DNA of 32,000 bases from Candidatus Thorarchaeota archaeon (GTDB lineage Archaea > Asgardarchaeota > Heimdallarchaeia > Hodarchaeales > Hodarchaeaceae), in the NCBI GenBank assembly GCA_048882505.1, contig JBHLRO010000012.1:60001-92000 (forward strand), in the 5' to 3' direction. This document shows, piece after piece, positions 15,030-32,000 of this stretch. The notes beneath the pieces were generated by a model that was given only the letters and a program-made list of their open reading frames with translations, was not told the DNA's origin and ran no database searches. A program made the position numbers and the translations under genes. Position 1 is the first letter of the stretch; each line of letters begins with the position of its first letter.

Positions 15030-15167
15030 ATATTCCTATTGATTTCGAAAATGAAAAAAATGCTCATTAGAGAAAAAGTGATCTGAAGAGAAACACTCTT
15101 GTAAAAAATTTCAAAGGATGGATAATTGATTCAGGACTCTTATATTGCTGGAAGTGGCGTTGTACTT

Positions 15168-15710
15168 ATGAAGCAGAAGCTTGTGCTCAAATTAGTTCTT
15201 TTAGGAGACCCTGGTGTCGGAAAAACATCGTTGATTTCTCAATTTGTACATGCGAGATTTAGAAATAGCTACCAGCTGACTGTAGGCCTTGATATTTCCT
15301 CCAAGCAGGTAAAACTAGATGATGGTAGGGTTGTAACACTCAGTATCAACGATATCGGCGGTCAGGCTAGGTTTGCCGCTATTCGGCATATGTTCTTCAA
15401 GGGATCTCACCTAGCCATGTTAGTATATGATGTTACTAGGGAAGATACGTTGCAGAACATAATTGAACCCTGGTTTGCCGAATTACAGGAATTCTGCAAT
15501 CAACCTGATGTTTCTAAAGTCCAGACGATTCTTGTGGGAAACAAGGCTGATCTTGAAGACTATAGAATGATCGAAGAAGAAGAGGGAAATGTTGTAGCAA
15601 AGGAAATCAACGCCATTAGTCATATTATCGCTAGTGCTAAGGAAAATCAGAATGTGGACATCGCGTTTAAAACCCTGGCTGAAGCATACTTTAGAGAGAC
15701 AAAAAGGTAG
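15168..15710 (+). CDS. Rab-like small GTPase (Ras superfamily)
   Basis: G1 GDPGVGKTS, G2 YQLTVG, G3 DIGGQARF, FFKGS, LVYDVT, G4 GNKAD, G5 SAKE. Confidence 0.95.
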   Translation: MKQKLVLKLVLLGDPGVGKTSLISQFVHARFRNSYQLTVGLDISSKQVKLDDGRVVTLSINDIGGQARFAAIRHMFFKGSHLAMLVYDVTREDTLQNIIEPWFAELQEFCNQPDVSKVQTILVGNKADLEDYRMIEEEEGNVVAKEINAISHIIASAKENQNVDIAFKTLAEAYFRETKR

Positions 15711-23854: not shown

Positions 23855-24742
23855 ATGATGTCTACACAACGTCTGTTCGTTTACTCTCCCTCTCTTGATG
23901 GGGAATACGTCCCCATAAAGTTTAATCCTGAAAAAGATATGATCGAATCCGAAGTACTTATTTTCTTGGACGATGAGGAGCGGCAGATTTTTATCTGGAC
24001 GGGGTCAGAAGCACCCGTTAGGAAGAGGTTTATCTCAAGCCAGATCGCTCGTCAAATGCGCCTCGAAAAGGGAATGACCTTTAGAGTTAGCACAGTTGAC
24101 GAAGGTAATGAAACCAAAGAATTTAATGCCCTGATTATGAGGATTGGCGCCGAAGGCATTAATCCAGGGCCGCTTCTGGAAGTTTCCCCGCCTCTTGGGG
24201 CTGCAGATCTTCCAGTACCCACTCCTGATGATTTAAAACCATCTAAGAAAGATCGAAAGAAAAAGAAATCAAAAGTAACAAAGGCAAAGACTTTAGCTGC
24301 CCTAAGAACGCCAACCTCGTCCAAACAAGCACCTCCCTCATTTCAGACACCAATCATCTCTTCTTCGCCAACAGTTAGCTCGCTAGCTTCTATTCCGTCC
24401 TCAAGCAATTCCAGGGGTTTTTATTATTCGGTTGACCAAGAGTCTGAGGTAACAAGAGATGAGGCTAAGATCATATTCCCTGCCGAAAGCCAAGATGTAA
24501 TCTTTACAACGTTATTGGTATCTACTCCATCGGAAAGCGGAAAAATTGAATTTTTCTCTTTAGCTGGAAAATCAAAAACAATTGAAGTAGAAAAAACGGA
24601 GGATCCCTTCCTGGTCATATACCTGACTCCCAAGGCACGTCCAGTTTATGAGCTAGATGATCTATATATTCCTATACCGAAAGGGAATTCTGTTTATCTC
24701 ACATGTCCTTCTCAAACATTTATAGGGATAAATTTGAAATAA
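23855..24742 (+). CDS. Single gelsolin-domain protein with Lys-rich and Ser/Pro-rich linker and an uncharacterised C-terminal domain (1DGelX-like)
   Basis: EVLIFLDDEERQIFIWTGSEAPVRKRFISSQIARQM...VSTVDEGNETKEFNALI matches the gelsolin repeat pattern (W.G...s...e; v..v.eg.E...F). Confidence 0.85.
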   Translation: MMSTQRLFVYSPSLDGEYVPIKFNPEKDMIESEVLIFLDDEERQIFIWTGSEAPVRKRFISSQIARQMRLEKGMTFRVSTVDEGNETKEFNALIMRIGAEGINPGPLLEVSPPLGAADLPVPTPDDLKPSKKDRKKKKSKVTKAKTLAALRTPTSSKQAPPSFQTPIISSSPTVSSLASIPSSSNSRGFYYSVDQESEVTRDEAKIIFPAESQDVIFTTLLVSTPSESGKIEFFSLAGKSKTIEVEKTEDPFLVIYLTPKARPVYELDDLYIPIPKGNSVYLTCPSQTFIGINLK

Positions 24743-28032: not shown

Positions 28033-28428
28033 GTGGATGAGGAGTCGATACTGCCTTTCATTAATGTTTCTTATATGGACGTTCTTGAGTCTCTTGGTAG
28101 CCCAGAAAGTGTAATTAGGTTACTAAAAACCAAGAAAATAAATCCAAAGGAGGCCGATTTTCTAGAAATTTTAGGTAGTTACATAAAGAGTCAAAATGAA
28201 ACCATTTTAAATACCATACGAGATTTATGTAACATACATTTTGGGGATCAAGGGGACGATGCATTCGAGAAGATTAAACGTTTTCTCGAAGGGCAAACCA
28301 GGGTTGCCTGGGTTATTTTCAGTCGACATTACCATAAAATCGATTTTGATGACCGTAACCCCCTCGAAGATTATCATCCCCGTATGTCAGAAGTCATTAT
28401 TGTCCATTTCAAATACAAGGTAATGTGA
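28033..28428 (+). CDS. Hypothetical protein, first gene of a 3-gene operon
   Basis: GTG start; its stop overlaps the next gene in a GTGA 4-nt overlap. Confidence 0.6.
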   Translation: MDEESILPFINVSYMDVLESLGSPESVIRLLKTKKINPKEADFLEILGSYIKSQNETILNTIRDLCNIHFGDQGDDAFEKIKRFLEGQTRVAWVIFSRHYHKIDFDDRNPLEDYHPRMSEVIIVHFKYKVM

Positions 28429-30239
28429 ATGCCATGGGTTCTGAAAAGTGTTCTGCCCTAGCCAACGAGGCAGAAGCAGCTTCCAAACATTCGCTGGACA
28501 TCGCTTCGAGTATTTATGAGGAAGCAGCAAGCTGTTATGATAAAGAAGGAGATAGACGTAAATCAGGTCAATTCCTGACGTTAGCAGGGGATCTGTTCCT
28601 TGAAATTAATAAGCATGATCAGGCTGCAACCTGTTATGGAAAAGCCATTTTACGATACCTGATGTCAGGGGATATTGAGACAGCCCAAATCCTCATAAAT
28701 AAAGGCGGAGAATATGGCTTCTCCTCTGCGAACCACCATTATAGAATCGCGATTGATTCATTGGAACGGCGGAAGGAGACGAAATTAGAAACAGAGGCCG
28801 CATTAGAAGAAAGTACGGCTGAAGAATGGATGATTGAAGAGGAATCTCTTCCAGAAGTGGAAATCATGCCGCTCGACGATGAAGAGCAGTTGATTACCCT
28901 GGAAATGGATGATATTCTCGATAAAGAGGATATTCAGATAAGGAAGCAGAATTTTGTCATCCCCCAGCTCGAAGTTGAGGATCCTTCGAGGGTGGGATCG
29001 TTTGCGGTTTTGGCTGCAGTTTCCCGAACTACTCGGGAATTGACCAGCCAAGACCAGCAGTTTATCCAAACCAATGCCGTGATACAGGATGCTTTAGGAG
29101 AGACCAAAATAATAGAACCGAAAATCACCATGTCACCAGTTAAGATAGCAGAAAGCGAAAGATCGGAGTTCTTTGAACTTTCCGAAACAATCACGACCGA
29201 AATCATGGGGGTTTCGTCTTTAGAGAATGAGGATTCAATAACAGATTCTTTAAATGGAACTTCAAACCTTGAATATCCTGATACATTAGATTTCGAGTAT
29301 TCAGGAAAAACTGAGATTGTAAACGAATATGCAGAAGAAATACATAACATTGAAGTAGTTGATACGATTCCCTTTCAGTGGCAGGTAATCGATGTTAAAT
29401 CAGATTTTGATCTAGAGAAGAAACACCGAACAAGTGAGGGATTAATCTATACATGGAAAAAAGATAGGATCTTACCTGGAAGAAAAATGGGAGTTGAATA
29501 CACACTACGAAAACGGGTTGAAAGGTCAATTGTCCTGAGAAAGGAGAACCAAGTATCAGTGTTGAATCTTTATCATTCTGTTCAAAAGGATTTAAAAGCC
29601 CAAATGGAGTTTGTTAACACAACGGGGAACTATTTCGAGGAAATTTTGATAGAAGATGTAATTCCGCCCGAATTGGTTGTGGTTCAGGCGACATCGGCTC
29701 AAGATATCAAACCAATTGCACTTCCAACTAATGATTCCACGTTATATCGATGGATTTTTAGCAGGTTACCTCCAGGTGAAACCTTTTCTGTAACCTACTT
29801 GTTTCGTGAAAAACCTATAACCAGATGGTATATACAGGAGATTGAATCTGAAAAAGGGATAGTAAAAGTAGAGAAGATTTCTCAACCTTTTGTTGATTCG
29901 AGACGATCCGAATATATCTGGATGTATCGAATCACTAATCCGATTTTAGATGAACTGCATATCGATGACAGGATTCCAGGTGATTATGAGATTGCCCTTG
30001 TAGAACCACCTCATTTGAGACCTTCGTTAACCATGAATGGAACTCATAAGGTTCTTAGTTGGAAGTTACCTCAGGAGTCAACAAACGAAGTCGTATTGAT
30101 TCGGATCTCTGGAAGCGAGTCTTTCACGCCCTTGGCGCCCGAAATTCATTTTTCACGGCTCGGAAAACCCCAGCTGGTTGAGAGAGGGGCTCAATCCCAC
30201 CGAAAGGTAATCGATTTTCGTAAAATACAAGAAGAATAG
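28425..30239 (+). CDS. Alpha-SNAP-like TPR N-terminus + acidic linker + three tandem DUF11/Ig-like repeats; no signal peptide
   Basis: ASSIYEEAASCY...KSGQFLTLAGDLFLEINKHDQAATCYGKA; E/D-rich middle; three repeats of pattern i.v.D.IP....v...........l.W.....PG....v.Y. Confidence 0.7.
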   Translation: MNAMGSEKCSALANEAEAASKHSLDIASSIYEEAASCYDKEGDRRKSGQFLTLAGDLFLEINKHDQAATCYGKAILRYLMSGDIETAQILINKGGEYGFSSANHHYRIAIDSLERRKETKLETEAALEESTAEEWMIEEESLPEVEIMPLDDEEQLITLEMDDILDKEDIQIRKQNFVIPQLEVEDPSRVGSFAVLAAVSRTTRELTSQDQQFIQTNAVIQDALGETKIIEPKITMSPVKIAESERSEFFELSETITTEIMGVSSLENEDSITDSLNGTSNLEYPDTLDFEYSGKTEIVNEYAEEIHNIEVVDTIPFQWQVIDVKSDFDLEKKHRTSEGLIYTWKKDRILPGRKMGVEYTLRKRVERSIVLRKENQVSVLNLYHSVQKDLKAQMEFVNTTGNYFEEILIEDVIPPELVVVQATSAQDIKPIALPTNDSTLYRWIFSRLPPGETFSVTYLFREKPITRWYIQEIESEKGIVKVEKISQPFVDSRRSEYIWMYRITNPILDELHIDDRIPGDYEIALVEPPHLRPSLTMNGTHKVLSWKLPQESTNEVVLIRISGSESFTPLAPEIHFSRLGKPQLVERGAQSHRKVIDFRKIQEE

Positions 30240-30248
30240 AAGGAGACC

Positions 30249-32000
30249 ATACTAACGTCCGAATCGATAAATAAACCAGGTATAGATTTAGCTGTTCTGG
30301 CTGTCCAATGGGATGAAATTAGTGGCCCCTCCATTATTTCCCTGTTCCCTCCTTCGGTGCTGAAAGACCCGGAATCAGTGGCCCTACAGATATATTTAGC
30401 ATCAGTAACAGTGTTTGGACAACATGGCCAGTCACAAAGAACTGAATTCTCTGTTCCTTTACTAAGCCTTGGTCAGGACGTTATTGCTCGTGTTGCCTTT
30501 GATTCATGGGAAGATGCGGATATTCGTGGCAAAGAGAGACCATTCTTTCTAGCATTCATTACTGGGGGTCAAACTAACGACTTATTGGGTCCTCATCTAG
30601 ATATTAATATTTTCGATTATTTAAACCAACTTAAGACTAAGGAAACCAATTTTGTTGCCAAGGAAATTTGGACTGTGCTTTCTGAACGAGTTTTAACAAA
30701 TGTTCCAGTTGAATCGATAGATAATAAAGATTTATCATATGAGACTTACTCCATTAAGGATGCACTTCAAGATCTGAAAACAGCGCATGAAGCTTGGGAT
30801 AAAACACAAGATAGAAACCAGTTGTGGACTGCCATACGCGTCGCAAATAAATTAGAAAACATAGATGACAATGCCGCCGGTCAGGCTTTCAATTTGGTTG
30901 GTACCATTTTCTTAGCTGGCAAGAACTACCACGAGGCCAAGGAGGCATTTGAACAGGCTACTAGTGCTTTTGGTCGTGCCCGTTTGTTCAATGATTCGGG
31001 CCAATCATCAGCATTAGCAGGAAAGTGTGCGTTTTATCTGGCTAATCTAGATGAAGCAATCGAATTTCTTCAGGGTGGAGTTCTGTGGGTAAAAGGAGAG
31101 GACAAACTTGCCTCGATTAATTTTGATATGGCAAGTGCATTGCATGCTAAAGAGCGATTCGAAGAATCCTATGTATATTTTGAAAAAGCAATCACCGCTG
31201 CCACGGGAGTAGATCCACACATCGCAGCTGAATATTCTGCAACCTACGCTAGCAGACTTATGAGTCATGCGGATAGTGTAAGAAACAAGAATCTTACTCT
31301 GAGCCAAGATTTAATTAGACGATCTGCAACCCAACGTGTCTCAGCAGCTCGCCTCTTATCCAAATCAGGAAACCCCCGTGAAGCAGCTAGTTCGTTAATT
31401 CTAGCGGGTAATGCGTTGCTATCGTTGAAAGATATAAGGGAAGGATGCGATAAGTTAAGAGAAGCTGCAGATCTATTTATTGAAGCGAACGATTATTCTT
31501 CCGCTGCAAGGGCTTTATACAATGGTGCCCGTAATATCAAGGATCCCAAAAGTTCTGACGAACTCCTTAGCAGAGCCATCAATCTATTGAAAGAGCATGA
31601 AACAGAGCAAAATTATCATACGTTGGGTCTCCTATTCTTTGAAAAGGGAAAAATCGAAACCAAGCGGCAGCAAATTGTCAAATCTATCCTATCTTTTGAA
31701 CAATCATCCGAATTTTTGACTCAGGCCCAAATAAAGGGTATTGAACTCTTCTCCATATATATCCAATTGGCCAACAATCATTTCAAATTAGAATCCTTTG
31801 AACGAGCCGCATTATCATTTTTTAAGGCCCATAATTCCTTAGCGGAGGCACCTAGACGGGGAAACTTAGAGGATCAGTACCAAAAAGCGTTTCTAAATGG
31901 CTTGATAAGTTTACGTCGTGCAAGTACCGTATACCACAATGCAGGAATCGTGGCTCTTCAAAATAAGGAAGAAGGTCGAGCACTCGATTTGTTTGGTCGA
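30249..32000 (+). CDS. uDENN/longin domain + long TPR/SNAP-like solenoid (3'-truncated by the window; absent from the ORF track; start codon non-canonical or uncertain)
   Basis: My translation is open from 30240 to the window end: ILTSESINKPGIDLAVLAVQWDEISGPSIISLFPPSVLKDPESVALQIYLASVTVFG...FDSWEDADIRGKERPFFLAFITG...AFNLVGTIFLAGKNYHEAKEAFEQA... AGGAG at 30241-30245 precedes ATA 30249. Confidence 0.8.
   Translation, partial: MLTSESINKPGIDLAVLAVQWDEISGPSIISLFPPSVLKDPESVALQIYLASVTVFGQHGQSQRTEFSVPLLSLGQDVIARVAFDSWEDADIRGKERPFFLAFITGGQTNDLLGPHLDINIFDYLNQLKTKETNFVAKEIWTVLSERVLTNVPVESIDNKDLSYETYSIKDALQDLKTAHEAWDKTQDRNQLWTAIRVANKLENIDDNAAGQAFNLVGTIFLAGKNYHEAKEAFEQATSAFGRARLFNDSGQSSALAGKCAFYLANLDEAIEFLQGGVLWVKGEDKLASINFDMASALHAKERFEESYVYFEKAITAATGVDPHIAAEYSATYASRLMSHADSVRNKNLTLSQDLIRRSATQRVSAARLLSKSGNPREAASSLILAGNALLSLKDIREGCDKLREAADLFIEANDYSSAARALYNGARNIKDPKSSDELLSRAINLLKEHETEQNYHTLGLLFFEKGKIETKRQQIVKSILSFEQSSEFLTQAQIKGIELFSIYIQLANNHFKLESFERAALSFFKAHNSLAEAPRRGNLEDQYQKAFLNGLISLRRASTVYHNAGIVALQNKEEGRALDLFGR

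What the first reader, a model, noticed from the sequence alone, without database searches (positions are those of the whole stretch)
28033..32000. Tightly coupled three-gene operon (unknown + SNAP/Ig + uDENN/TPR): possible proto-trafficking or GTPase-regulatory complex
Seen: gene 1 overlaps gene 2 by 4 nt (GTGA), and gene 3 begins within about 10 nt of the gene 2 stop, which suggests translational coupling and a stoichiometric complex. Two of the three carry domains tied to endomembrane traffic in eukaryotes. Longin domains usually need a partner (longin or roadblock), so the 131-aa orphan or genes beyond the window edge may supply it. I know of no described system with this composition; that is a statement of my knowledge, not a search result.
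Basis: inference. Interest (0 to 1): 0.6.

Follow-up and report, generated by a model that had tools for sequence, protein, structure and literature searches.

The report
Asgard three-gene longin-GAP scaffold operon
A close archaeal relative of eukaryotes (Hodarchaeales) keeps three genes together that probably build one soluble protein complex; one part resembles the domain that human SMCR8, C9orf72 and folliculin use to switch off small GTPases, but neither that activity nor a role in membrane traffic has been shown.

Summary
The operon is real and conserved. It is in order in 20 of 21 same-genus genomes and in five more distant lineages, mostly with different flanking genes. Gene 3 ends 186 nt past the window and a convergent gene follows; no GTPase, roadblock or longin partner is adjacent. 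Gene 1 models as a helical bundle with an extended tail, not a longin. Gene 2 has a SNAP-like helical head, acidic linkers and three DUF11-type beta-sandwiches, with no signal or membrane segment. Gene 3's head is not a DENN-GEF module. It resembles the GAP-type 'GP-motif' longins, carrying both the C9orf72 WD motif and an arginine in register with SMCR8's catalytic R147 (24/24 orthologs; direct E-values only 0.24-0.38). Genes 1+2 are the older core (also in Freyarchaeum); gene 3 is the add-on. Start codons need correcting: the GTGA overlap is not conserved, and gene 3 probably starts at ACG. Best reading: a cytoplasmic scaffold carrying a small-GTPase GAP (about 45%); a trafficking role is unsupported. 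The longin class is published; I found no paper on the operon. This scan already reported the operon from other genomes.

The parts
28033..28428 (+). Gene 1: Asgard-restricted orphan, probably 125 aa from CTG 28051 (ORF from GTG 28033 is 131 aa). Five-helix bundle (aa 14-99) plus a conserved extended C-terminal tail. Not a longin or roadblock. In every genome where both genes could be read it lies directly upstream of a gene-2 ortholog.
   Evidence: pLDDT 82; no match, best Z 4.9
28425..30239 (+). Gene 2: soluble scaffold, probably 601 aa from ATG 28434
28440..28811 (+). Gene 2 head: five-helix SNAP/TPR-like solenoid. In Heimdallarchaeaceae the homologous head sits on the upstream gene instead.
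   Evidence: SNAP E 0.0016, below cut-off; Sec17/gamma-SNAP Z 13-13.6, tied with Rap and HAP40 Z 13.1; HH 94%, E 1.3e-7
28785..29282 (+). Gene 2 middle: acidic linker (aa 121-170: 21 D/E, 1 K/R), conserved strand-helix-hairpin (aa 170-240), disordered variable insert (aa 243-286)
29286..30164 (+). Gene 2 tail: three homologous DUF11-type beta-sandwich units, related to the C-terminal domain of Asgard mu-adaptin-like proteins
30240..30257 (+). Shine-Dalgarno AAGGAG, 9-nt spacer and probable near-cognate ACG start codon (30255) of gene 3
   Evidence: same slot ACG x10, TTG x3, ATG x2; the spacer stays 9 nt when the gene-2 stop moves
30255..30700 (+). Gene 3 N-terminal GAP-type (GP-motif) longin: W-D at 30309-30314, G-P at 30324-30329, candidate arginine finger CGT 30525-30527
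   Evidence: C9orf72 E 0.38; SMCR8 E 0.24, R147 in register
30701..32000 (+). Gene 3 TPR/SNAP-like solenoid; the gene continues to window coordinate 32186 (about 643 aa in all)

Best explanation
The operon encodes a soluble cytoplasmic complex. Gene 1 and gene 2 form the ancient core: a small helical protein whose extended tail probably binds the multi-domain gene-2 scaffold (inferred). In Hodarchaeales this core recruits gene 3 through TPR/SNAP solenoid contacts (inferred). Gene 3's longin acts as a GTPase-activating module for a small GTPase encoded elsewhere in the genome. It probably pairs with a second copy of itself or with another GP-motif longin, because one chain carries both the WD motif and the arginine finger that eukaryotes divide between C9orf72 and SMCR8 (motifs shown; pairing and activity inferred). 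The beta-sandwiches on flexible acidic linkers would position the GAP at a target site. A weak ACG start may keep gene 3 below equimolar levels (inferred).
For: Order g1-g2-g3 is kept in 20/21 same-genus genomes, in G022, and in four divergent lineages at about 30% identity, three with unrelated flanks. g1-g2 are adjacent in six genomes of three other Asgard families, including Ca. Freyarchaeum deiterrae. The SNAP head moves from gene 2 to the upstream gene in Heimdallarchaeaceae. Sandwich-protein followed by longin-TPR recurs in two Lokiarchaeia families, including Ca. Harpocratesius repetitus (L078, L169). WD-x3-GP and the RG loop are present in 24/24 gene-3 orthologs, and the longin is the most conserved part (74% vs 37-54%). 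The best natural PDB hits of the family profiles are C9orf72 and SMCR8, with W33-D34, G38-P39, G68-P69 and R147 in register (residues from PMC12290439). Paralogs hit Pfam Folliculin (E 4.8e-5), and several paralogs sit next to small GTPase genes. The genome has about 39 small-GTPase-like ORFs. No membrane or signal segment was found.
Against: Direct E-values to C9orf72 and SMCR8 are not significant (0.38, 0.24), and the longin itself was not folded. No GTPase is linked to the operon. Gene 3 is separate from g1-g2 in G023 and was not found beside them in Freyarchaeum-type genomes. The Loki longin-TPR partners have lost the arginine, so the link with the sandwich protein does not need catalysis. 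The same WD+R signature occurs in receiver-longin fusions, so it may mark a fold family rather than an activity.
Confidence: 0.45

Rival explanations
1. The three proteins form a complex, but the longin is a non-catalytic sensing, dimerising or GTPase-docking module, as in the receiver-longin fusions of Asgard two-component signalling.
For: The closest paralogs are receiver+longin proteins and the cytoplasmic tails of giant surface proteins. Loki partners of the sandwich proteins lack the arginine. Liu et al. (10.1101/2020.10.19.343400) describe NPRL2-like longins fused to two-component domains.
Against: The arginine, WD and GP are invariant across 24 orthologs while the TPR part diverges, at the positions needed for catalysis in SMCR8 and C9orf72.
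Confidence: 0.25
2. Genes 1-2 act together, and gene 3 is only co-regulated with them rather than a subunit of the same complex.
For: Gene 3 is unlinked in G023 and was not found with this query in the Freyarchaeum-type or Heimdallarchaeaceae genomes searched. Its start codon is weak.
Against: The triple survives across lineages at about 30% identity with changed flanks, and the sandwich-then-longin-TPR order recurs in Lokiarchaeia.
Confidence: 0.17
3. A proto-coat or proto-trafficking adaptor that binds membranes or cargo.
For: The solenoid-linker-sandwich layout recalls adaptor appendages. The sandwich units are homologous to a domain of Asgard mu-adaptin-like proteins (HH 95-97%) and weakly to the part that matches Pfam Adap_comp_sub (60%). 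The best structural matches of the head are Sec17/SNAP.
Against: No membrane-binding, propeller or cargo module was identified. DUF11 and TPR folds are generic across prokaryotes. SNAP matches tie with unrelated TPRs. No ESCRT, coat or GTPase gene is adjacent.
Confidence: 0.13

Closest known systems
Eukaryotic longin GAP complexes (C9orf72-SMCR8-WDR41, FLCN-FNIP, NPRL2-NPRL3) and Asgard 'FLCN/SMCR8-type' GP-motif longins (PMC12290439)
   Same: GP motif, WD motif and an arginine in register with SMCR8 R147; top PDB hits of the family profile
   Different: WD and arginine are on one chain; the longin is fused to a TPR solenoid rather than DENN; partners are a helical orphan and a SNAP/DUF11 scaffold, not a second longin-DENN or a WD40 protein
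Asgard DENN operon (roadblock + Rab-like GTPase + DENN) and NPRL2-like longin fusions (Liu et al., 10.1101/2020.10.19.343400)
   Same: Asgard operon with a longin-type GTPase regulator; gene 3 is homologous to receiver-longin fusions
   Different: No roadblock, GTPase or DENN domain in this operon
alpha/gamma-SNAP (Sec17)
   Same: Helical hairpin geometry of the gene-2 head (Z 13-13.6); Pfam SNAP over cut-off for gene 3
   Different: The gene-2 head has only about 5 helices and is fused to sandwiches; Rap, HAP40 and TPR families score as well or better
DUF11 (PF01345) sandwiches and Asgard mu-adaptin-like proteins
   Same: N-x-D-x-I-P-type beta-sandwich repeats; HH 95-97% to the C-terminal domain of the Asgard mu-like proteins
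   Different: Cytoplasmic, no signal peptide; no Pfam mu-homology match for gene 2 itself

Membership tests
GAP-type (GP-motif) longins: SMCR8/FLCN/NPRL2/C9orf72 | GP motif at the start of strand 2 | tested here: met
   G26-P27 in 24/24 orthologs, aligned to SMCR8 G68-P69 and C9orf72 G38-P39
GAP-type (GP-motif) longins: SMCR8/FLCN/NPRL2/C9orf72 | Arginine finger at the SMCR8 R147 position | tested here: met
   R93 in 24/24 orthologs; profile alignment puts it on SMCR8 R147 with a shared D-x3-R-G-x2-R-P-F context; alignment E 0.24
GAP-type (GP-motif) longins: SMCR8/FLCN/NPRL2/C9orf72 | C9orf72-type WD motif | tested here: met
   W21-D22 in 24/24, same spacing to GP as W33-D34
GAP-type (GP-motif) longins: SMCR8/FLCN/NPRL2/C9orf72 | Significant profile match to the family | tested here: inconclusive
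   No direct Pfam hit; PDB E 0.24-0.38; transitive through paralogs that match Pfam Folliculin
GAP-type (GP-motif) longins: SMCR8/FLCN/NPRL2/C9orf72 | Longin fold in a structure model | not tested
GAP-type (GP-motif) longins: SMCR8/FLCN/NPRL2/C9orf72 | GAP activity on a small GTPase | not testable with these tools
   needs biochemistry
Tripartite DENN proteins | cDENN/dDENN after the longin | tested here: not met
   TPR/SNAP repeats follow the longin; no DENN Pfam hit at E 0.1
Asgard roadblock-GTPase-DENN operon (Liu et al.) | Adjacent roadblock and Rab-like GTPase genes | tested here: not met
   Neighbours are a divergent NUDIX gene and a convergent membrane protein
Longin/roadblock (for gene 1) | Central beta-sheet flanked by helices | tested here: not met
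   AF2 model (pLDDT 82) shows five helices and no sheet
alpha/gamma-SNAP | Stand-alone solenoid of about 290 aa passing the Pfam SNAP cut-off | tested here: not met
   Gene 2: 18.4 bits against a cut-off of 25, head about 125 aa. Gene 3: 29 bits, but fused to a longin and with TPR families scoring higher
alpha/gamma-SNAP | Binds SNAREs and NSF | not tested
   not examined
AP/COPI mu-homology domain | Sequence or fold match to Adap_comp_sub | tested here: inconclusive
   No Pfam hit for gene 2; 60% HH to the mu-matching part of Asgard mu-like proteins; fold searches were filled by the head domain
DUF11 repeat proteins | DUF11 beta-sandwich repeat | tested here: met
   Freyarchaeum ortholog passes the cut-off (25.0 vs 24.6 bits); 6 of 23 Heimdallarchaeia homologs match; Atlas neighbours are DUF11
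DUF11 repeat proteins | Secretion signal or membrane anchor, as in surface proteins | tested here: not met
   Maximum 19-residue hydropathy 1.2

The most novel reading that the evidence does not exclude
An undescribed Asgard complex in which a self-pairing longin carrying both halves of the C9orf72/SMCR8 catalytic site works as a true small-GTPase GAP, positioned by a mu-adaptin-related SNAP/sandwich scaffold. It would be a living model of the homodimeric ancestor of the folliculin, GATOR1 and C9orf72 complexes in the archaeal order closest to eukaryotes.
Probability: 0.2. Interest if true: 0.85.

Novelty: new variant of a known kind. Interest (0 to 1): 0.5.

Why it matters
Whether Asgard GP-motif longins are GAPs is an open question raised in PMC12290439. 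This locus offers a single-copy, soluble, strongly conserved candidate with defined partners and defined residues to mutate, in Hodarchaeales. It also shows a modular Asgard scaffold family (sandwich repeats recombined with SNAP-like, gelsolin-like and longin-TPR parts). A conserved ACG start makes gene callers cut off the key motif of gene 3.

Tried and rejected
Complex prediction gene 1 + gene 2: verdict 'no answer' (0.79, but a control with an unrelated chain scored 0.69); not used as evidence either way. Fold searches for gene 1 against PDB, PDB representatives and the Atlas gave nothing clear (best Z 4.9); this does not show a new fold. Whole-protein fold searches for gene 2 were filled by the helical head, so the sandwiches were barely tested. 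Gene 1 is not detectably homologous to the upstream gene or the N-domain of Heimdallarchaeaceae homologs. Direct Pfam and PDB searches with the narrow gene-3 longin profile found nothing. The promoter/terminator scan was at chance level. Read-through fusion of genes 2 and 3 was considered because they are in frame in most of the genus; rejected, since the frame follows from the fixed SD-start spacing and is lost in deeper lineages. Genome-wide SD enrichment supports CTG starts modestly (2.1x) but ACG hardly (1.4x), so the ACG case rests on the ortholog comparison. Same-genus synteny was discounted because flanking HMG-CoA reductase, NUDIX and PolB genes are equally syntenic. Literature searches found no description of the operon. 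One locus scan with the gene-1 alignment failed for lack of a conserved stretch. The PF00928 search of the own genome rang nowhere, controls included, so it is uninformative.
Full report
Source and observation. The window is contig C12:60001-92000 of a 4.3-Mb genome. Homolog names place it in Hodarchaeales, Asgard archaea. Three co-oriented ORFs lie at 28033-28428, 28425-30239 and from just after 30239 to window coordinate 32186. A divergent NUDIX gene precedes them and a convergent 748-aa membrane protein follows, so the unit has exactly three genes. No GTPase, roadblock or longin is adjacent; the nearest small GTPases are about 12 kb upstream and 16 kb downstream. Each of the three genes is single copy.

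Start codons. Orthologs start gene 1 at the codon equal to CTG 28051 and gene 2 at an ATG just after the gene-1 stop, equal to ATG 28434. The GTGA overlap is therefore not conserved. Gene 3 has no canonical start before its invariant motif. Nine bases after a conserved AAGGAG/TGGAG the codon is ACG in 10 genomes, TTG in 3 and ATG in 2, and the spacing holds when the gene-2 stop moves. I infer ACG 30255. One ortholog has TCG there, and several others also have a later ATG. A caller using GTG 30357 would remove the WD-GP motif.

Conservation. The order g1-g2-g3 holds in 20 of 21 same-genus genomes, some across contig breaks; G004 (74% complete) lacks all three. Flanking genes are equally syntenic within the genus, so deeper cases carry the weight. 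G022 keeps the triple across a contig break. Four lineages at about 30% identity keep it with gaps of -8 to 47 nt, three of them with unrelated flanks. In G023 genes 1-2 are together and gene 3 lies elsewhere. Outside the order, gene 1 was found in six genomes of three families, including Ca. Freyarchaeum deiterrae, always directly before a gene-2 ortholog and without gene 3. A profile search of 1.84 billion proteins gave only 24 hits for gene 1. Other Heimdallarchaeia carry the three-sandwich protein with a different N-terminus (59 of 61 genomes match). In Heimdallarchaeaceae the SNAP-like head is on the upstream gene instead (HH 94%), a domain swap that suggests the two products act together. 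In Lokiarchaeia, two-sandwich proteins (one with a weak gelsolin match) are followed by longin-TPR genes in two families (L078, L169), though not in all loci read.

Gene 1. The AF2 model (pLDDT 82) is a five-helix bundle with an extended, conserved tail. It is not a longin or roadblock. No fold or family match was found. The unstructured conserved tail suggests folding on a partner (inference).

Gene 2. The model (pLDDT 82) shows a helical head (aa 6-129), an acidic linker, a conserved strand-helix-hairpin segment, a disordered insert and three sandwiches. The head matches Sec17/SNAPs at Z 13-13.6 but also Rap and HAP40 at Z 13.1, so it is SNAP-like and not specifically a SNAP. The sandwiches are repeats of one unit. 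They are DUF11-type and homologous to the last domain of Asgard mu-adaptin-like proteins (HH 95-97%), with only a weak link (60%) to the part that matches the mu-homology family. None of the three proteins has a hydrophobic segment.

Gene 3. The first 150 residues carry invariant W21-D22-x3-G26-P27 and R93-G94 in all 24 orthologs and are the most conserved part of the protein (74% against 37-54%; numbering of P0002). The narrow profile found nothing. Adding Asgard paralogs (receiver-longin fusions and longin tails of giant surface proteins) made C9orf72 (E 0.38) and then SMCR8 (E 0.24) the best natural PDB matches, with the functional residues in register. Five paralogs match Pfam Folliculin (best E 4.8e-5). 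PMC12290439 reports that W33-D34 of C9orf72 and R147 of SMCR8 are needed for GAP activity. It also reports that the GP motif marks GAP longins and is absent from DENND, TRAPP and adaptin longins, and that GP-plus-arginine longins exist in Heimdallarchaeia. The rest of gene 3 is TPR/SNAP repeats with no DENN domain. The E-values are not significant alone; the assignment rests on motif register and transitive hits, and I did not fold this domain.

Mechanism. Shown: linkage, domain layout, motifs and solubility. Inferred: a g1-g2 core that recruits g3, and g3 as a GAP, possibly self-paired, for one of about 39 small-GTPase-like proteins in the genome. Against this: no linked GTPase, loss of the arginine in the Loki partners, and the same signature in receiver fusions. 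I put a physical complex of all three at roughly 0.65, GAP function within it at 0.45, and a membrane-trafficking role at about 0.13.

Novelty. The longin class is published (PMC12290439; 10.1101/2020.10.19.343400). The operon, the g1-g2 core and the ACG start were not found in the papers searched. Earlier reports of this scan reached a similar reading on other genomes; they are not independent support. Verdict: a new variant of a known kind, interest 0.5.

Noticed in passing
G000 C10:95218-125427, C35:9568-22596, C8:38567-50884, C1:14082-25136, C17:58675-68820, C4:109892-118849, C4:53159-57847, C9:124209-127031, C50:5921-8392: Nine surface-type ORFs (823 to 10,069 aa) end in a GP-motif longin with an ARGG-type arginine loop, after a predicted membrane helix in those I read; they look like receptor-style proteins.
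   Followed up: partly
G000 C14:6851-51040: A 14,729-aa open reading frame.
   Followed up: no
G000 C6:54848-55747 and L137-L148: Receiver + GP-motif longin fusions, several next to small GTPase genes.
   Followed up: partly
window 23855-24742: 295-aa protein with a weak gelsolin-type match, syntenic with the operon within the genus only.
   Followed up: partly
window 15126-15710: Rab/Ras-like small GTPase 12 kb upstream; linkage to the operon not examined beyond the flanks fetched.
   Followed up: no
L001:6220-8466 and L001:8621-13141 (beyond the window edge): Convergent 748-aa multi-pass membrane protein without a family, then a 1,506-aa family-B DNA polymerase; both syntenic in the genus.
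   Followed up: partly
L077, L080, L168, L170, L171 (Lokiarchaeia-type genomes): Tandem paralogs of two-sandwich proteins; in L080 and L168 they follow a small longin-like gene.
   Followed up: partly
L089 (G023:C657): A second module in the same order: longin-like gene, helical gene, then a sandwich protein with a duplicated Heimdallarchaeia-type N-domain.
   Followed up: no
G000 genome-wide: CTG codons near ORF starts are 2.1-fold enriched for an upstream SD motif, suggesting some CTG initiation.
   Followed up: partly
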